Positions 4,106-57,931 of a stretch of 64,000 nt of DNA are shown here, in pieces; the stretch's first letter is position 1; each line of letters starts with the position of its first letter. The translations under genes and the position numbers were made by a program. This stretch comes from Eledone cirrhosa. Its lineage: Eukaryota. The stretch lies in the NCBI GenBank assembly GCA_964016885.1, contig OZ024760.1:15252001-15316000 (forward strand). The letters are read 5' to 3'. The notes beneath the pieces were generated by a model. It made no database searches and was not told the DNA's origin. It saw only the letters and a list, made by a program, of their open reading frames with translations.

Positions 4106-5290
4106 GTAACATGTGACTACAGGTGGTTGCTATTTTTCAATAACACGTGGATTACGTCATCGCTTTCATTTTACTGGCTTCACTCGTTAAGGCTACCGGC
4201 CATGCTGGGGCATTTGTCTTCATCAATATCCTGTCTAGGAGTGGTTGCCATTATATTTCAGCTCTGATGTACTTATTTTATCGATCGTTGTTTGTCGAAT
4301 GGCTGAGTTACTCTCTCTTTTATCTTTTTTTCTAACACACCTCAAACTGTCGGCATAATAATAATAATAATAATAATAATAAAGATAATAATAATGATTT
4401 CTTTATTGGCCACAAGGGCTGACATCAAGGGACACATTACAGCTGGCACAGGACGGTGCGATGTGGGTTTTGTGCGTGTAAATATTTTTATTATTTATAT
4501 AAGAAAAGAAAAAAAAAGGACATAGAAACATATATATATATATATATGTTTATATATATATATATATATATATATAAACAATAAAAATGAAAATTGAAAC
4601 AATGAAAAATTCCCCAATAGGGGGGGGGGGGGAACCTCCGAGGGTCGAATGCTTTCTTTATTAAGCACAATGGTTGACATAATGTATAACATTAAGGACA
4701 GCACAGGACGGCACAAATGGGCATTCCTGCGTGTACAAAAACAAAAACAAAATTATATGTATAAAAAAAAAGGATTTCATTTATTAGCCAGAAAGGCCGA
4801 CATGTAGGGGGCAATACAAAGGCAGGGGCAGTGAGGCGAGGTTTACAATAAGATTGAGTTCAAATGCACTATAACAAAACCAATTTAACAATGAAAAAAA
4901 TATAAAAAGAAAATATATATAAAAATAATTGTTTCTACTTTTGGCACAAGGCCATCAAATTACCCAGTGCATTACTGGTACTTTATTTTATCGACCCCGT
5001 AAGGATAAAAGGCAAAGTTAACCTCGGATGGATTTGAACTCGGATCATAAAGGGACGTAACTATGCTGGAAAGCATGGCGTCCGACCCTCTACCAATACT
5101 GAAAATAATATATATAAATCAGAATGGATGCAGTAAAAACCTGTTACTCACCCACCAGAGTACTCAATACTTGGGGTAGTAGAGTGGGTAATAGGAAGGA
5201 TACGGGATCCCTGGATCTAACTGTTGAAATAGCATGAGCTCAGCCGTCCGGGTCCCGAATCGATCATATTTTTCTTTTTCTTTTTCTTAT

Positions 5291-5474: not shown

Positions 5475-5570
5475 AATGATACATGACATACCCTGAGATG
5501 TTAAATGGTTAAGATTTAATCAAGGTAGTAAAATCTTAACCATTTAACATCTCAGGGTATGTCATGTATC

Positions 5571-5627
5571 ATATTTTGTCTGATGAGGACGTACTGTTGT
5601 ACATCCGAAATATGTATAATAAAATGT
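5571..5627 (+). ncRNA. Minimal type I hammerhead ribozyme (PLE-type)
   Basis: AUAUUUUGU-CUGAUGA-GGACGUAC uguu GUACAUCC-GAAA-U augu A-UA-AUAAAAUGU; 9-bp stem I, AUA cleavage site. Confidence 0.82.
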
Positions 5628-6041: not shown

Positions 6042-7124
6042 CAAAGTTTGTTTTATAAATATTGGCATAACCAGGAAGAAGATCTTCACGGTTCAAGTTT
6101 TTCCTGGATATATAAAGTCTGTCTTAAGCCAGAAGGCTCATTTGGCTGGTGCTTATCCCGGTTTTATTGCATAAAGTGACTGAGAGTACAAGACTTTCCT
6201 CTGAACAGGACGCCAGTCCATCGCTGGGTTAAACCCTTAACTATTGCTGGTACTCATTTTCAGCTGAGTATACTGGAGCAATGTGAAATGAAGTGTCTTG
6301 CTCAAGAACACAACACACAACCCAGAAATCAAAACCACGACATTATGATCGTAAGTACAGCACCCTTACCACTAAACCATGTGTCTCCACTCACACACAC
6401 ACACACACATATATGTATATGTGTACATATACATAGGCGCATGGCTTAGTGGTTAGAGCATTGGGCTTGCAATCGAAAGGTTTTGAGTTCAAATCTCGAA
6501 CCGTGTGATGTGTTATTTCCTTGAGCAAGACACTTTATTTCACGTTGCTCCAGTTTACTCAGCTGTAGAAATGAGATGATAGGGACTGGGGTCCCTATCA
6601 TTAAATCACCCAAGACACCTCCAACGAGATATACCTTGGAGGAGGCCAACTAAACCTGCATAGGTGTGAGCTGTCACACACACACACACATAGGTGTGAG
6701 CTGTCACACACACACACATATGCACACATAGTATTGCTAGATGCCAGAATGAGTACTCAATACCATGTAGTAGAGATTAATATATTCTTTATTAAGACGT
6801 CCTATAACCCTGGGGTTTCACCTGTGTCTTCACAGGGATCAAGTCTTAACTGATAATCCTGTGAATAGACAGGTGTACTTCTAGACTAACAGGAATGGTC
6901 TTAATAAAATAGATATATGTATATATGTGTATATATGTGTTGTGTGTGTATGTATGTGTATATACAATTTGTTGTGTATGTGTATATATATTTGTTGTGT
7001 GTGTATGTATGTCTTATATATGTGTGTGTGTGTGTGTCTGTATATGTGTGTATAGGTGTGTGTGTATATATGCGTGGATGTGCATGTTATATGTGTGTGT
7101 GTCTGTGTGTAATGTGTGTGTGTG

Positions 7125-19545: not shown

Positions 19546-19633
<88 letters not shown>

Positions 19634-19642
19634 ACCAGTAAG

Positions 19643-19736
19643 ACCCCGACAGCTGAGCTCAAGCCGTTTCGACGGCTAATTCTGGACTAAATGAACATTT
19701 ATCCTGGTATTTAAATAGCCGATCTTCTCAAGGGGT
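19643..19736 (-). ncRNA. Inverted copy of the U3-A8 hammerhead ribozyme
   Basis: Reverse complement of 22931-23024, inside the left inverted repeat. Confidence 0.85.
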
Positions 19737-20129
19737 AATTCCATATATGGTCAAAGTGATTGTCAAAAATCAGTAGTAATTCTGTGGTTGCAAATTAGTA
19801 GGGGAGATGGTGGCTAAACCTGCCAGTAGGAGAAAGAGGGGAGGGGGTGGAGTAGACCCAATCAAGCGTTGGTAGTGCCAGCTACAGCTGGGCATGAGGT
19901 CAAAGAAGATACAGGGGAGGGGGAGGGGGAGGAAGTCGGAACGGTAGGTAGAACAATGGGGGGTAAAAATAGGAAAGAAAAAATACTGAGAGTGAAGAAA
20001 AGCAAATAAGTGTAAAGAAAAAATTAAATTCTACGACCTAGGTGTCAGGCTATTGTTAGGCGAGAATAAAATAAAGAAAGAAAGAAAGAAGTAAATAAAT
20101 AAATAAATAAATAAATAAGGAAATAAGTA

Positions 20130-21832
20130 AACTCCACCTATAAAAAGGCCAACCACTCTTGCATCGAGGACATAAATCGAGATGGACAACAAATCACCTC
20201 CAGCCTCGGGGTCGCCGACCGCACGGAACCTCTAGACCCACGGACACCATACTTCACACTGAAGGACCATAAATCCGATTTTGACCGTAAACCCTCCATC
20301 AGGCTTATTAACCCAACGAAGTCCGACATAGGGAGAATCAGCAAAAAAATCCTAGACCGCGTGATACCAAAAGTCAAGCAACACACCCGACTTAGCCTAT
20401 GGATCAACACCCAGGAAGTAATCTCCTGGTTCAGCAATATGGAGGATAAACGAGAAACTAAATTCATACAGTTCGACATAGAGAGCTACTATGCTTCAAT
20501 CACCTTACCGCTACTTACTGCCGCCTTGGACTTCGCCGAAACACTCGTGCCCATCACCGACCAGGAAAGAAAAATCATCCTCCACGCCAGGAAGACAGTC
20601 TTACTCTTTGACGACTCTAAATGGATAAAAAGAGCTCCCGACTCACCCTTCGACGTCAGCATGGGCGCCACGGATTCGGCGGAGGTCACTGATCTTATAG
20701 GATTATTCCTAATAGCCAAACTCACTGATATGTTTCCTGCATTCGGTGGTGGATTGTACCGTGATGATGGGCTCCTTACCCTTAAAGGGTACAACCCCAG
20801 TAGTACAGATCGGGTCCGGAAACAATTAATCATTTAAGATTCTTCCGCGACTGGGGATTTAAAATAACCCTACAAACGTCCCTGACCCGAGTAAACTTCC
20901 TGGACGTAACCCTCGACCTCGAAAACGACCTGTACTACCCATACAGGAAACCTAATGACAATCTGCACTACATCCACCGCCGATCAAACCATCCTAGGAA
21001 CATCACAAACAACCTGGTCAAAAACATCTCCCTCCGCATATCCCGTTTGTCAGCTAATGAGCGGATATTCGATGAACATGCGCCTTATTACAACCAGGCC
21101 CTCAAGCGGAGTGGTTTCCGGGAGGAAATATCCTACTGTCCAGATCCCATTAGCGGAACCAGCAGGAGACACCGCCGCTCACGCAATGTAACATGGTTCA
21201 ATCCTCCCCACAACGCAGAGGTGACTACTCCCATCGGGAAACTATTCTTTAGGCTCATTGAAAAACACTTCCCATTACAACACCGCTACCACAACATAAT
21301 TAACAAAAATACCATCAAACTCTCTTACAGCACTACACCAAACTTCGCACAAAACATCGTCTCCTCTAACAACAAAAAACTCAACCCCGATGGCAGAAAT
21401 AACCTAAATAGCAGTGGAGAACCGACCAGGAGGTATAACTGCCCGGATAGATCTATTTGCCCACTCGACAATAGATGCAGAGACCGTAATGTGATCTACC
21501 AGTGCAACGTGAGGACGGATACCTCCAACAAAGCCTATATAGGACTTACCTTCCGAAACCCGGCCCGGCGTCACGCCACTACACTTTCGGGCCACATATG
21601 GGACCTCAAGGACAACAACATCACCTATGATCTCACTTGGAGATTACTGTCCAGAGCCAATTCTTACACGGGAGGACGCCGTCCGTGCAATTTATGCTCG
21701 GAGGAAACTTTACAAATGCTGTTTTCGACGGACCAACTCCTAAACAAGAAAGATGAACTGGTTACTGCATGTAAACATAGATTGCGTAGGACTTACCTCG
21801 CCCTCAAACCCCATAATGACCCGGGGGGGTAG
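20130..21832 (+). pseudogene. PLE RT-GIY-YIG ORF, disrupted
   Basis: No start codon (5'-truncated). Frameshift at ~20832-20836 (KQLI|RFFRDWGFK). Apparent in-frame deletion after YIGLT at 21550/21551. Confidence 0.88.
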
Positions 21833-22930
21833 ACTAGGGCTATAACACCCCAGTTGCCGATTTTGCAATGGGTAACCCCTGCTTGCCAAGGAAGACGTAA
21901 GATCTTCTTTGTATTCTTTTATCGCATCCTTTATTTCCTTCCCCCCTCTCTCCTTTGTCCTTCTACCCCAGCTCTTCTCCTTTGTCGGCGTCTTTTCTCG
22001 CCCACCCGAGGCTGCCCTTTGGCCCCATGTAGCCTTAGTACCCCCACTCCCCCCTCCCCTAGTCTTTGATAGATTTGGCGGACTCCGCCCTTTATAGCAG
22101 TTGGCTTAGACCCCGGATACTTGCCCCCCTTTTCCGACCGCTCCCACTATTCTCTGTGCCCTCTATATTTCTTAGTGGCACTTATGCCTTATTTTTTCGT
22201 TTCAGTATTTCTTGCTTCGCTTTTCTTCTGGGCGGGGTGGATTCTGAACTTATTTCTCCGTATTCTACCTTTATTTCGTACGAACTTTCATGTAGCTTGT
22301 TTTAGATCTTTTAGAGTTAGCATTAGTATATATTTTTCCCGGGACTCAGAATTATTATGTCGTACAAGTTCACTTTGCTGCACTGGGTCGTTGCTGGCCC
22401 GGGATGGAAACCTTTATTGTTTATTTCGTGGTAGTCTCTTTAGTATTTTGGCCCCTTTTGTTGACCAGTCACCGTATCATTTACGTACTTATACCTCTTA
22501 AAAGGGTCCTTGCCTAATTCGTCCCACCTAGTTCTTTTACTTATTTCCTTATTTATTTATTTATTTATTTATTTACTTCTTTCTTTCTTTCTTTATTTTA
22601 TTCTCGCCTAACAATAGCCTGACACCTAGGTCGTAGAATTTAATTTTTTCTTTACACTTATTTGCTTTTCTTCACTCTCAGTATTTTTTCTTTCCTATTT
22701 TTACCCCCCATTGTTCTACCTACCGTTCCGACTTCCTCCCCCTCCCCCTCCCCTGTATCTTCTTTGACCTCATGCCCAGCTGTAGCTGGCACTACCAACG
22801 CTTGATTGGGTCTACTCCACCCCCTCCCCTCTTTCTCCTACTGGCAGGTTTAGCCACCATCTCCCCTACTAATTTGCAACCACAGAATTACTACTGATTT
22901 TTGACAATCACTTTGACCATATATGGAATT

Positions 22931-23024
22931 ACCCCTTGAGAAGATCGGCTATTTAAATACCAGGATAAATGTTCATTTAGTCCAGAATTAGCCGTCGAAA
23001 CGGCTTGAGCTCAGCTGTCGGGGT
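22931..23024 (+). ncRNA. Type I hammerhead ribozyme, U3-A8 core variant
   Basis: Stem I ACCCC/GGGGU; core UUGAGAA; stem II GA(U)CGGCUA/UAGCCGUC; GAAA; stem III CGGCU/AGCUG around loop UGAGCUC; GUC at 23017-23019. Confidence 0.85.
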
Positions 23025-23115
23025 CTTACTGGTTTCTATTACCCACTCTACTACCTCAAGTATTGAGTACTTTGGTGCGTTATGGTCCACCTGGTTCCTT
23101 ACCACATTTCCTTCG

Positions 23116-23176
<61 letters not shown>

Positions 23177-46834: not shown

Positions 46835-47750
46835 ACCGTTTTACGTCCGTTCTTCCACGCTAGCATGGGTTAGACGGGTTGTCCTGTTGTGGGCAGTGTC
46901 TGGTCGGCTGACCATGCCTTGCTCATACAGGAACTGATCTGGCTTGATTTCTACAGCTGGATGCCCTTCCTAACACCAACCTCATTTACAGTGAGTGCTG
47001 GGTGCTTTTTCGTGGCGCCTACACGTCCACTTTACAGTGTGGGCTGGGTGCTTTTTTGCCGTGGCACCTCCACGACCACCTTGCGGTGGGGGGGGGGGGG
47101 GGGGGGGGGCATATTGTTTATATGCTTCAGCATGTACCCATGGGAGGTCGGGTACCCTGTATTACTGCGTGACGCCAGAAGTCACGGTCGTGTGTCATTG
47201 ACTTTGAGAGGTGTAGTTGGGTAAGGTCGGCTTTTATCACCTCATCCCAAGTCATCTTGGGTCTCCCCACTCCGCGGTTTCCATCAACTTCTAGTGCTCT
47301 GCACCTTTTTATGCAGCTGTCATCCTTCATACGCATCACATGTCCATACCAGCGTAACCGCCTCTCCTGCACGCAGCATTTGATTCCTCTTATGCTCAGT
47401 CTCTCTCTCAATTCATTTATGCTTTGTCGTTCACGTATATTACTGTTACACATCCATCGGAGCATGCAGGCTTCGTTTCTCTCTAATCTACGTAAGTCTT
47501 CCACCTTCAGCGCCCAGGTCTCACTACCATGCAACATCGCTGTTCGGATACACGCATCATACAGTCTGCCTTTCATTCTGAGGGAGAAGCCTTTTGCAGC
47601 TAGCAGTGGTAGTAGTTCCCTAAACTTCTTCCATCCCGTTCTTACCCTAGTTATTGTACTTTCTGAGCACCCACCTCCGTTGCTAATTCGGTCACCTAGG
47701 TAGCAGAAGCTGTCTACTGTTTCTACAGGGCCCTCCCAGAGATTGGTGGT
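46835..47750 (-). mobile_element. RTE-clade LINE 3' fragment
   Basis: VETVDSFCYLGD...GWKKFRELL...KGRLYDACIRTAMLHGSETW...[12 protein letters not shown]...GRPKMTW. Its 3' UTR is shared with SINE family 2. Confidence 0.88.
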
Positions 47751-47779
47751 ACTTGTTTCCTGTGGCTGTTTGCTTGCTG

Positions 47780-47840
<61 letters not shown>

Positions 47841-47867
47841 TATTTACATCATCATCATCATCATCAT

Positions 47868-50979: not shown

Positions 50980-51450
50980 TCATTCATAACAGTCAAAAAA
51001 TGGTTCACTGATAATAGCCTCATCTCCTGGGTTCATGAAGTCATTTATACAGCAATATAAAGCACCATAGCCTCCAACAGTGATTAGTATTTCTTTAAAT
51101 GGATCCAATGTATGACCCATTATTGGAGAATATACTTTAGACAATGATTCAACCAATTGAGGATGTCCAAATCCTTGAGCATATTGGTGCAGTAAATGTT
51201 TCTTGGTTTTAGCAGCTTCTACCATAGCATCCATAGTATGTTGTGGAGGTTTAAAGTCTTGAAAACCCTCCCCAAGGTTGACAGCTTTATAGTCTGCAGC
51301 CAATTTGCTCATTTCCACCCAGACATTTTTTTCACAACCATCGTACTTTTTGGCTAACGTTTCCTCTACTGGATGACACCTTGGAGAAGTATCTTCTACT
51401 ATAGCTTCAAGTTGAACAATGCTTTGTGAAGGAATTTTAGTAGTCAGAAA
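50980..51450 (-). pseudogene. KYAT: Kynurenine aminotransferase (KYAT1/KYAT3, class I/II aminotransferase) N-terminal fragment, probably a retrocopy
   Basis: Uninterrupted frame LAKKYDGCEKNVWVEMSKLAADYKAVNLGEGFQDF...HQYAQGFGHPQLV...EILITVGGYGALYCCI...PGDEAIISEPFFDCYE*. It stops abruptly and is followed by a CAA-rich tract. The conserved NLGQGFPD is altered to NLGEGFQD. Confidence 0.8.
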
Positions 51451-57645: not shown

Positions 57646-57700
<55 letters not shown>

Positions 57701-57856
57701 AAAAAGTATGACCCCAACGGCAGAGCTCAAGCCATTTCGACGGCTATTTCTGGACTAAATTAGAATTTTTAGCCTGGCTATTCCCACTCTACTACCCAAA
57801 GTATTGAGTACTCTGGTGCGTTATGGTCCATTTGGTTCCTTACCACAATTCCTTTG

Positions 57857-57931
<75 letters not shown>

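What the first reader, a model, noticed from the sequence alone, without database searches (positions are those of the whole stretch)
22931..23024. Penelope-like element encodes a full-size hammerhead with a covariant U3-A8 core that CUGAnGA searches would miss
Seen: stem I ACCCC/GGGGU, a 7-nt core UUGAGAA, stem II extended by an inner hairpin (GGA-UAAAUG uu CAUUUA-G-UCC), GAAA, a stem III of 5 bp plus the A-U pair closing a palindromic GAGCUC loop, and GUC. Established: positions 3 and 8 form a tertiary Watson-Crick pair in the hammerhead core, so C3G8 to U3A8 is a compensatory change. PLE hammerheads are usually minimal with a vestigial stem III. Inference: this is a monomer-competent ribozyme of unusual architecture that processes this family's RNA, predicted to cut after C23019. 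Partial homologues at 5213-5256 and 57710-57770(-) keep the GAAA-stem III half, with the 57710 copy's changes mostly preserving pairing.
Basis: partly seen in the sequence, partly recalled or inferred. Interest (0 to 1): 0.8.

Follow-up and report, generated by a model that had tools for sequence, protein, structure and literature searches.

The report
Hammerhead ribozyme with wobbling core pair
A jumping gene in this animal genome carries a predicted self-cutting RNA whose core variant is already known, but earlier members of its family had the supposedly essential core base pair mismatched and still left well over a thousand copies, so the RNA likely cuts slowly or only with help.

Summary
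U3-A8 is not new. It is published for Penelope hammerheads (PMC4209133), and this scan met it on other DNA. New here is the family history. One pattern finds 5762 U3-A8, 1771 C3·A8, 80 U3·G8 and 38 C3-G8 matches in the genome. ORF trees form one ladder, C-G, U·G, U-A, U·G, U-A, C·A, U-A, and the protein stayed under purifying selection during the C·A stage. So the pair is not strictly compensatory here. Copies end 20 or 100 nt past the predicted cut, and 73 of 90 long copies run across it, so the templates were uncut or re-ligated. Across subfamilies stem III keeps 5 bp and a palindrome, so dimers remain possible. A rival hairpin lies within 0.4 kcal/mol of the hammerhead fold. Best reading: a slow or assisted ribozyme. 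Cleavage is untested. New variant of a known kind.

The parts
19628..20131 (-). Inverted 5' copy of the pLTR (matches 22536-23039), starting in a (TA)n tract
   Evidence: 504 bp, 100% identical; arrangement described for PLE insertions (PMC8557442 Fig. 2 legend)
19643..19736 (-). Second, identical hammerhead motif inside the inverted pLTR
   Evidence: descriptor hit 19644-19731
20128..21832 (+). 5'-truncated, broken RT plus C-terminal GIY-YIG ORF of a Hydra-type Penelope-like element; 5-nt insertion near 20832, 42-nt deletion near 21550, first Cys of the CxCX5C linker lost
   Evidence: 98.4% to an unbroken 717-aa genomic copy at L031
21833..22930 (+). Long pyrimidine-rich non-coding region (3' UTR / pLTR)
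22931..23024 (+). Type I hammerhead motif: stem I 22931-35/23020-24; U3 22936, N7 22940, A8 22941, A9 22942; G10.1-C11.1 22943/22996; G12 A13 A14 22997-99; A15.1-U16.1 23000/23018; C17 23019
22952..22988 (+). Distal stem II extension (internal loop plus inner hairpin); length roughly kept, sequence poorly kept
   Evidence: 19 of 37 positions shared with subfamily C, about the 52% of four-fold sites
23007..23012 (+). Six-base palindrome in loop III, a predicted dimerisation site
   Evidence: 6 of 6 kept between youngest and oldest groups while 2 of 3 flanking loop bases differ; self-duplex -26.3 versus hairpin -4.9 kcal/mol
22990..23005 (+). Rival hairpin that pairs the 3' strand of stem II with the 5' strand of stem III and would hide GAAA
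   Evidence: probability 0.24 and within 0.4 kcal/mol in this copy; above 0.6 in 5 of 6 C·A copies; no covariation above shuffles
23025..23119 (+). Sequence after the ribozyme with two preferred insertion ends, 23039 (+20 from the cut) and 23119 (+100; the one-sided tail), followed by (TA)n
   Evidence: ORF-selected copies: 17 end at +100, 1 at +96, 11 at +20, 2 run on, none at the cut, of 31
57696..57881 (.). Short stub of older subfamily B: inverted 3' half of the hammerhead (57696-57782, minus strand) joined to the forward tail (57778-57881); no 5' core
5150..5256 (.). Decayed stub of older subfamily C: inverted tail piece (5150-5197) plus 3' half of the hammerhead (5213-5256, plus strand); no 5' core

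Best explanation
This is a type I hammerhead motif in the pseudo-LTR of a Hydra-type Penelope-like retrotransposon, predicted to cut after C23019 but likely slowly or only when helped by the element's protein or by a second copy. Shown: intact copies lie in 3531-bp tandem units, so one motif sits about 190 nt before the ORF and the next after it; inserted copies end 20 or 100 nt downstream of the cut site; most long copies run across it. Inferred: reverse transcription starts at those downstream sites, so the template's downstream hammerhead must be uncut or re-ligated into a circle, and a fast cutter would destroy its own template. Inferred: occasional cutting at the upstream copy frees element RNA from read-through or tandem transcripts. 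Such selection would keep the catalytic nucleotides and let the 3-8 pair drift among pyrimidine-purine states (C-G, U·G, U-A, C·A) that weaken cutting without abolishing the fold. U3-A8 in this copy is the present state of that drift.
For: Fold and chance control. Alignment of 35 copies: 82.8% of cells paired, 0 of 500 shuffles as high; one stem II pair reads G-C 16, G-U 10, A-U 8. Twelve core positions are identical between the youngest subfamily and subfamily C, against 52% identity at four-fold sites (0.52^12 is about 4e-4, my arithmetic), while N7 takes all four bases. State counts for 3-8, ladder tree, AU tests, dN/dS 0.07-0.08 within the C·A stage. All six changes at 3 and 8 are transitions, against 48% transitions at four-fold sites (p 0.013). 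Ends of copies. In a Poseidon PLE the hammerhead cut only with protein, catalytic mutants did not affect insertion in vitro, and RT started at two internal sites matching the tail (PMC11167929). Metazoan PLE hammerheads showed low activity in vitro (PMC4209133).
Against: No cleavage was measured. No RNA evidence: the only RNA run held one contig over 22606-22739, not over the ribozyme. In one deep mutational scan every change at 3-8 other than the G3-C8 swap gave low activity (PMC9901934), so C·A and perhaps U-A could be dead rather than slow. Subfamilies B, E, C·A, C1 and D were found with patterns that fix most core letters, so their core invariance is partly built in. The 5' flank (15 of 17) is conserved too, so conservation could reflect protein binding. 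A trace of in vivo cutting is weak: 6 of 28 nearby 5' ends fall at -6..+2 (fixed-window p 0.001, window chosen after looking; any-window p 0.09), and as many fall at -38..-44.
Confidence: 0.55

Rival explanations
1. An efficient monomeric ribozyme that routinely processes the element's RNA, for example into unit-length RNA that is circularised and copied by rolling reverse transcription.
For: The hammerhead fold is the minimum-energy structure in this copy up to a 240-nt context. U3-A8 ribozymes are reported as active in vitro (PMC3088659). Tandem arrays of up to five units and copies that span the cut site fit a circular template. The youngest subfamily regained U3 and the 10.2-11.2 pair.
Against: Ancestors with C·A left at least 1771 matches, and the rival fold dominates in 5 of 6 of those copies. 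In longer contexts the hammerhead fold falls to about 0.14-0.35 or is lost. No loop I/loop II contact was identified. U-A was not rescued in one mutational scan.
Confidence: 0.2
2. A catalytically silent or dispensable fold, kept as a binding and positioning signal for the element's protein next to the two reverse-transcription start sites; cleavage no longer matters.
For: About 43% of the trunk length that can be assigned to a state lies in non-Watson-Crick states (0.070 of 0.164, my sums), near what free transitions would give. Positions 3 and 8 changed three times each over about 1.8 substitutions per four-fold site. Hammerhead mutants did not affect insertion in vitro. Naiad elements spread without canonical hammerheads.
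Against: G5, A6, A9, G12, A13, A14, the A15.1-U16.1 pair and the GUC triplet are the positions kept and N7 is the one that varies freely, which is the catalytic pattern. No transversion was fixed at 3 or 8.
Confidence: 0.2
3. An obligate dimer ribozyme: two copies swap stem III strands through the palindrome, as with minimal PLE hammerheads, so cutting needs tandem transcripts.
For: The palindrome is kept in all groups; strand-swapped duplex -26.3 kcal/mol; dimer mode described for PLE hammerheads.
Against: Five stem III pairs are kept in 29-33 of 35 copies each, enough for a monomer hairpin. Any hairpin can form a strand-swapped duplex, so the energy alone says little. The palindrome was part of most search patterns.
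Confidence: 0.05

Closest known systems
U3-A8 minimal hammerheads of Schistosoma mansoni Cercyon PLEs (Cervera and de la Pena 2014, PMC4209133)
   Same: Type I hammerhead in the pLTR of a PLE, U3-A8 core missed by the CUGAnGA descriptor, long helix II, G10.1-C11.1, palindromic helix III region.
   Different: Those lack helix III and have an extra base after A9. This one has 5-6 bp of stem III with a 7-9 nt loop and a 54-nt stem II domain. Mismatch states at 3-8 are not described in the text I read.
Hydra clade of C-terminal EN+ PLEs, e.g. Hydra-1_Obim and Hydra-2_Amil (Craig et al. 2021, PMC8557442)
   Same: RWR for RWK, DKT, CxCX5C linker, CxxC and CxH around the EN end, (TA)n targets, inverted 5' copy, one-sided tail, hammerhead near the 3' end.
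   Different: All 26 Hydra rows of File S2 have C3-G8 cores, 3-4 bp palindromic stems III with loops of 0-3 nt, and short stems II. The unit here is 3531 bp against generally under 3 kb.
PAc Poseidon element of Anolis (Frangieh et al. 2024, PMC11167929)
   Same: Hammerhead upstream of two preferred ends that define the tail; unprocessed RNA as the likely template.
   Different: Other PLE clade, canonical C3-G8 minimal hammerhead overlapping the ORF start; there G8C and C3G single mutants abolished cutting.
Natural core-variant hammerheads (Perreault et al. 2011, PMC3088659)
   Same: Natural C3-G8 to U3-A8 covariation.
   Different: No amplified C3·A8 or U3·G8 lineage is described in section 8, which I read.

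Membership tests
Type I hammerhead ribozyme | Three helices around the core, stem I open | tested here: met
   Minimum-energy fold; pair counts above shuffles and slid controls
Type I hammerhead ribozyme | U4 G5 A6, A9, G12 A13 A14, G10.1-C11.1, A15.1-U16.1, NUH cleavage triplet | tested here: met
   Present in this copy; 12 of 12 shared with subfamilies C and D; partly fixed by search patterns outside groups A and C
Type I hammerhead ribozyme | Watson-Crick pair between positions 3 and 8 | tested here: inconclusive
   Met in this copy (U-A); not met in ancestral subfamilies: U-A 16, U·G 7, C-G 6, C·A 6 of 35 chosen rows; genome counts
Type I hammerhead ribozyme | Tertiary contact between stems I and II | not tested
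   None recognised by eye; distal stem II is poorly conserved
Type I hammerhead ribozyme | Site-specific self-cleavage | not testable with these tools
   No raw RNA reads available; weak, non-significant cluster of 5' ends at the site
Rfam hammerhead families | Score at the gathering threshold | tested here: not met
   No hammerhead family at E<=10 in 22700-23110
Minimal PLE hammerhead (min-HHR) | Helix III absent or 1-2 bp | tested here: not met
   Five pairs kept in 29-33 of 35 copies each
Minimal PLE hammerhead (min-HHR) | [quoted passage not shown] | tested here: not met
   A9 is followed directly by G10.1; the bulge lies after 10.2
Hydra clade PLE | Single ORF, RT with C-terminal GIY-YIG; RWK, DKT, CxCX5C, CxxC and CxH motifs | tested here: met
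   Read by eye in P0003 against section 11 of PMC8557442; RWR in place of RWK; Pfam finds nothing; Atlas neighbours carry HTH_animal, GIY-YIG, RVT_1 (a lead only)
Hydra clade PLE | CCHH motif of the endonuclease absent | tested here: met
   One Cys, no CxxC, between the GIY and YIG equivalents; the position of the motif is recalled, from no call
Hydra clade PLE | Insertion into (TA)n | tested here: met
   Both flanks in the window and many loci
Hydra clade PLE | Placement in the Hydra clade on an RT tree | not tested
   No tree with the published proteins was built; filed as Hydra-type, probable member

The most novel reading that the evidence does not exclude
A natural hammerhead whose 3-8 pair is a tunable brake: an autonomous retrotransposon lineage passed through C-G, U·G, U-A, U·G, U-A, C·A and U-A, and the C·A form still cuts, either with help from the element's protein or through a shifted register (C3 pairing with G7, which every sampled C3·A8 subfamily kept), because too fast a cut would sever the template upstream of the reverse-transcription start sites.
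Probability: 0.2. Interest if true: 0.75.

Novelty: new variant of a known kind. Interest (0 to 1): 0.45.

Why it matters
What hammerheads do for Penelope-like elements is an open question (PMC8557442, PMC11167929, PMC7761336). This genome holds an ordered natural series of one ribozyme scaffold with all four pyrimidine-purine states at a core pair usually treated as essential, each tied to a subfamily with a selected ORF. Six short transcripts would show whether the element prospered with a dead ribozyme (cutting dispensable in vivo) or whether mismatch cores can cut (core rules looser than mutagenesis suggests). Search descriptors that allow only C3-G8 and U3-A8 would miss about a quarter of the matches here (1851 of 7651). 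The U3-A8 core alone is ordinary.

Tried and rejected
Rfam scans: no hammerhead match in the region; the 150 best rows of the whole-window scan were microsatellite-driven miRNA hits, two tRNA hits and a snoRNA hit, and 60 lower rows were not shown. Pfam: nothing for P0001, P0002, P0003. Folding z-scores do not separate the motif from shuffles. RNA support: one RNA run with share 0.20, whose single contig does not cover the ribozyme; runs X6 and X7 had small shares and were not used. I first read the C3-G8 rows as direct covariation. Rejected: by eye 12 of 38 sit on young or middle scaffolds and look like private single changes (in L395 the partner copy has U3), 6-7 are the old group D, the rest are chance hits before truncated copies. 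Returns to U-A were considered as proof of compensatory selection. Rejected: any second transition from U·G or C·A restores a Watson-Crick pair. The cluster of 5' ends at the cut site does not survive an any-window control; the first attempt stopped at polymorphisms and was discarded. The rival hairpin has no covariation support. The tail shows no unusually stable fold. Rows dropped: duplicates L130, L236, L266; L198 (chimeric projection) and L158 (private change); those two and 12 subfamily-C rows. Przybilski and Hammann 2007, which measured 3-8 exchanges, is not held, so I know it only through PMC3088659; Lunse et al. 2017 was seen only as a reference. Literature searches with no report of mismatch states or of this family. 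File 1 of the PMC4209133 supplement could not be searched; bioRxiv supplements are closed; subscription papers are not covered.

Full report
Observation. The motif is present as described. The minimum-energy fold of 22931-23024 is the hammerhead three-way junction. A relaxed descriptor finds two hits in the window and none in 150 shuffles. The second hit is an identical copy on the minus strand at 19643-19736, inside a 504-bp inverted pLTR. Rfam does not recognise the motif, and its folding energy is ordinary.

Element. The motif follows a broken, 5'-truncated RT and endonuclease ORF, and the insertion sits in (TA)n on both sides. The family is young: the 40 best genomic matches of the region differ by at most about one base in 311. 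Unbroken copies occur in 3531-bp tandem units with a 717-aa ORF starting about 190 nt after the cut site. The protein shows RWR, DKT, CxCX5C, CxxC and CxH, the marks given for the Hydra clade (PMC8557442 section 11); no tree with the published proteins was built. The host is probably an octopus, on likeness to Hydra-1_Obim and earlier scan notes on other genomes; this was not tested.

What is known. U3-A8 is reported for Schistosoma PLE hammerheads, about 1,300 hits (PMC4209133, parts 1-3 of 4 read; supplement file 2 searched), and as a natural variant elsewhere (PMC3088659, passages and section 8). Fungal and protist PLE hammerheads with large helix III are also described, and a fungal one cut as a monomer. 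All 26 Hydra rows in File S2 of PMC8557442 have C3-G8 and short stems, so the 54-nt stem II domain and the 5-6 bp stem III with a palindromic loop are a variant for this clade. Earlier notes of this scan describe U3-A8 Penelope hammerheads in this and other genomes; my look-ups for a C3·A8 lineage returned nothing.

Family comparison. One pattern with positions 3 and 8 varied gave 5762 U3-A8, 1771 C3·A8, 80 U3·G8 and 38 C3-G8 matches, with reversed-pattern controls at 0. These are matches, not insertions, since many insertions carry two copies, and old copies are under-counted. Contigs of run X2 show C at 22936 in about a quarter of the depth (this run may be the source sample). C·A copies are attached to near-complete ORFs. 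About 26 of the 80 U·G rows, counted by eye, form one subfamily (E), and a second U·G group (C1) has its own upstream sequence.

History. Trees of the last 854 ORF columns, which exclude the ribozyme, form one ladder (52 rows, 42 rows): D (C-G in L160, U·G in L229), C1 (U·G), C (U-A), E (U·G), B (U-A), C·A, A (U-A, this copy's group). End branches shorten towards A, as expected for successive waves. AU tests reject a C·A clade (p 1.7e-112), a clade of A plus B (p 3.7e-37) and a clade of all A8-bearing rows (p 2.8e-93); these groups were named after a first tree had been seen. The order of C1 and C rests on a node with 86/99 support; the root is my choice of group D; only two D rows have both ORF and ribozyme. 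Differences shared within groups give dN/dS of 0.06-0.13 at every step tested from C to A, and 0.07-0.08 within the C·A stage, so the source elements of that stage encoded a working protein. Positions 3 and 8 changed three times each, all by transition (p 0.013 against four-fold sites). Trunk length that can be assigned is 0.094 in U-A, 0.056 in C·A and 0.014 in U·G (my sums). Twelve other core positions are the same in A, C and D, against 52% and 43% identity at four-fold sites. Only A and C were collected through the ORF or UTR (and A was then read from an anchor in the 3' half of the motif), so a subfamily with a changed core could have been missed. The C·A stage alone is too short to show whether the rest of the core was under selection then.

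Structure across the family. On 35 chosen copies 82.8% of cells pair, above all 500 shuffles and all slid controls; related sequences inflate this. One stem II pair covaries G-C, G-U, A-U. The loop III palindrome is kept while its flanks change, though it was part of most patterns. A rival hairpin at 22990-23005 would hide GAAA; it is within 0.4 kcal/mol in this copy and dominates in 5 of 6 C·A copies and in one young U-A copy. It has no covariation support. In longer contexts the hammerhead fold loses out.

Mechanism. Among 31 ribozyme copies in ORF-selected loci, 17 end at +100, 1 at +96, 11 at +20, 2 run on, and none ends at the cut. This matches the two internal RT start sites and the tail shown for another PLE (PMC11167929, passages). 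Of 90 loci holding the 5' UTR, 73 continue upstream across the cut site (39 to the edge of the locus; some are units of one array), 6 stop at -6 to +2 and 11 stop at +18 to +87. A linear RNA cut at its downstream hammerhead lacks those start sites, so the templates were uncut or re-ligated (inference). The cluster at the cut is not significant after an any-window control (p 0.09). In the Poseidon element the hammerhead needed protein to cut and its mutants did not affect insertion in vitro. In a mutational scan of another hammerhead only the G3-C8 swap rescued this pair (PMC9901934, passages). I therefore favour a slow or assisted ribozyme (0.55) over an efficient monomer (0.2), a dead fold used as a protein landmark (0.2) or an obligate dimer (0.05). 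No cleavage or expression was shown here.

Verdict. The headline U3-A8 core is known. The larger architecture is a modest variant. The ordered series of mismatch states in an autonomous lineage is the part I did not find in print (searches; open-access library only, and the paper that measured 3-8 exchanges was not available). It makes the role of PLE hammerheads directly testable. Novelty: new variant of a known kind. Interest 0.45.

Noticed in passing
L326 (G000:C2:356030060-356031880): Seven tandem 299-bp units made of this element's pLTR and ORF start. The hammerhead keeps its core but lacks about 20 nt of the distal stem II. It looks like a young non-LTR retrozyme derived from this PLE, as proposed in preprint 10.64898/2026.07.22.740005 (part 1 of 5 read), and is a natural deletion test of the extension.
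   Followed up: partly
window 22920-22930 with 23025-23039: Stem I may extend through an internal loop (GGAA with UUCC in most copies). The window copy has T at 23035 where 28 of the 29 other top-scoring loci have C, which would weaken it.
   Followed up: no
C3·A8 matches nearly all have G7, whereas U3-A8 matches have G, A, U or C at position 7. One origin explains it, but so would a shifted register with C3 pairing to G7.
   Followed up: partly
loci L296-L385: Six 5' ends cluster 38-44 nt upstream of the cut site, in the 3' strand of the inner stem II hairpin; possibly a template-switch hotspot.
   Followed up: no
G000:C440:38330-118050: Four near-identical old copies with U3·G8 at about 26-kb spacing, probably a large tandem duplication.
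   Followed up: no
window 5476-5572: A 97-bp near-perfect inverted repeat, MITE-like; the Rfam MIR9408 hit is below gathering.
   Followed up: no
window 6439-6507: tRNA-like match above the Rfam gathering score (36.3 against 29 bits); tRNA or SINE head.
   Followed up: no
window 50980-51450 (-): Uninterrupted 156-aa frame resembling a class I/II aminotransferase of the kynurenine aminotransferase type (likeness recalled, from no search); possibly a retrocopy.
   Followed up: no
window 47127-47843 (-): Frame resembling the C-terminal end of an RTE-type LINE protein (likeness recalled, from no search).
   Followed up: no
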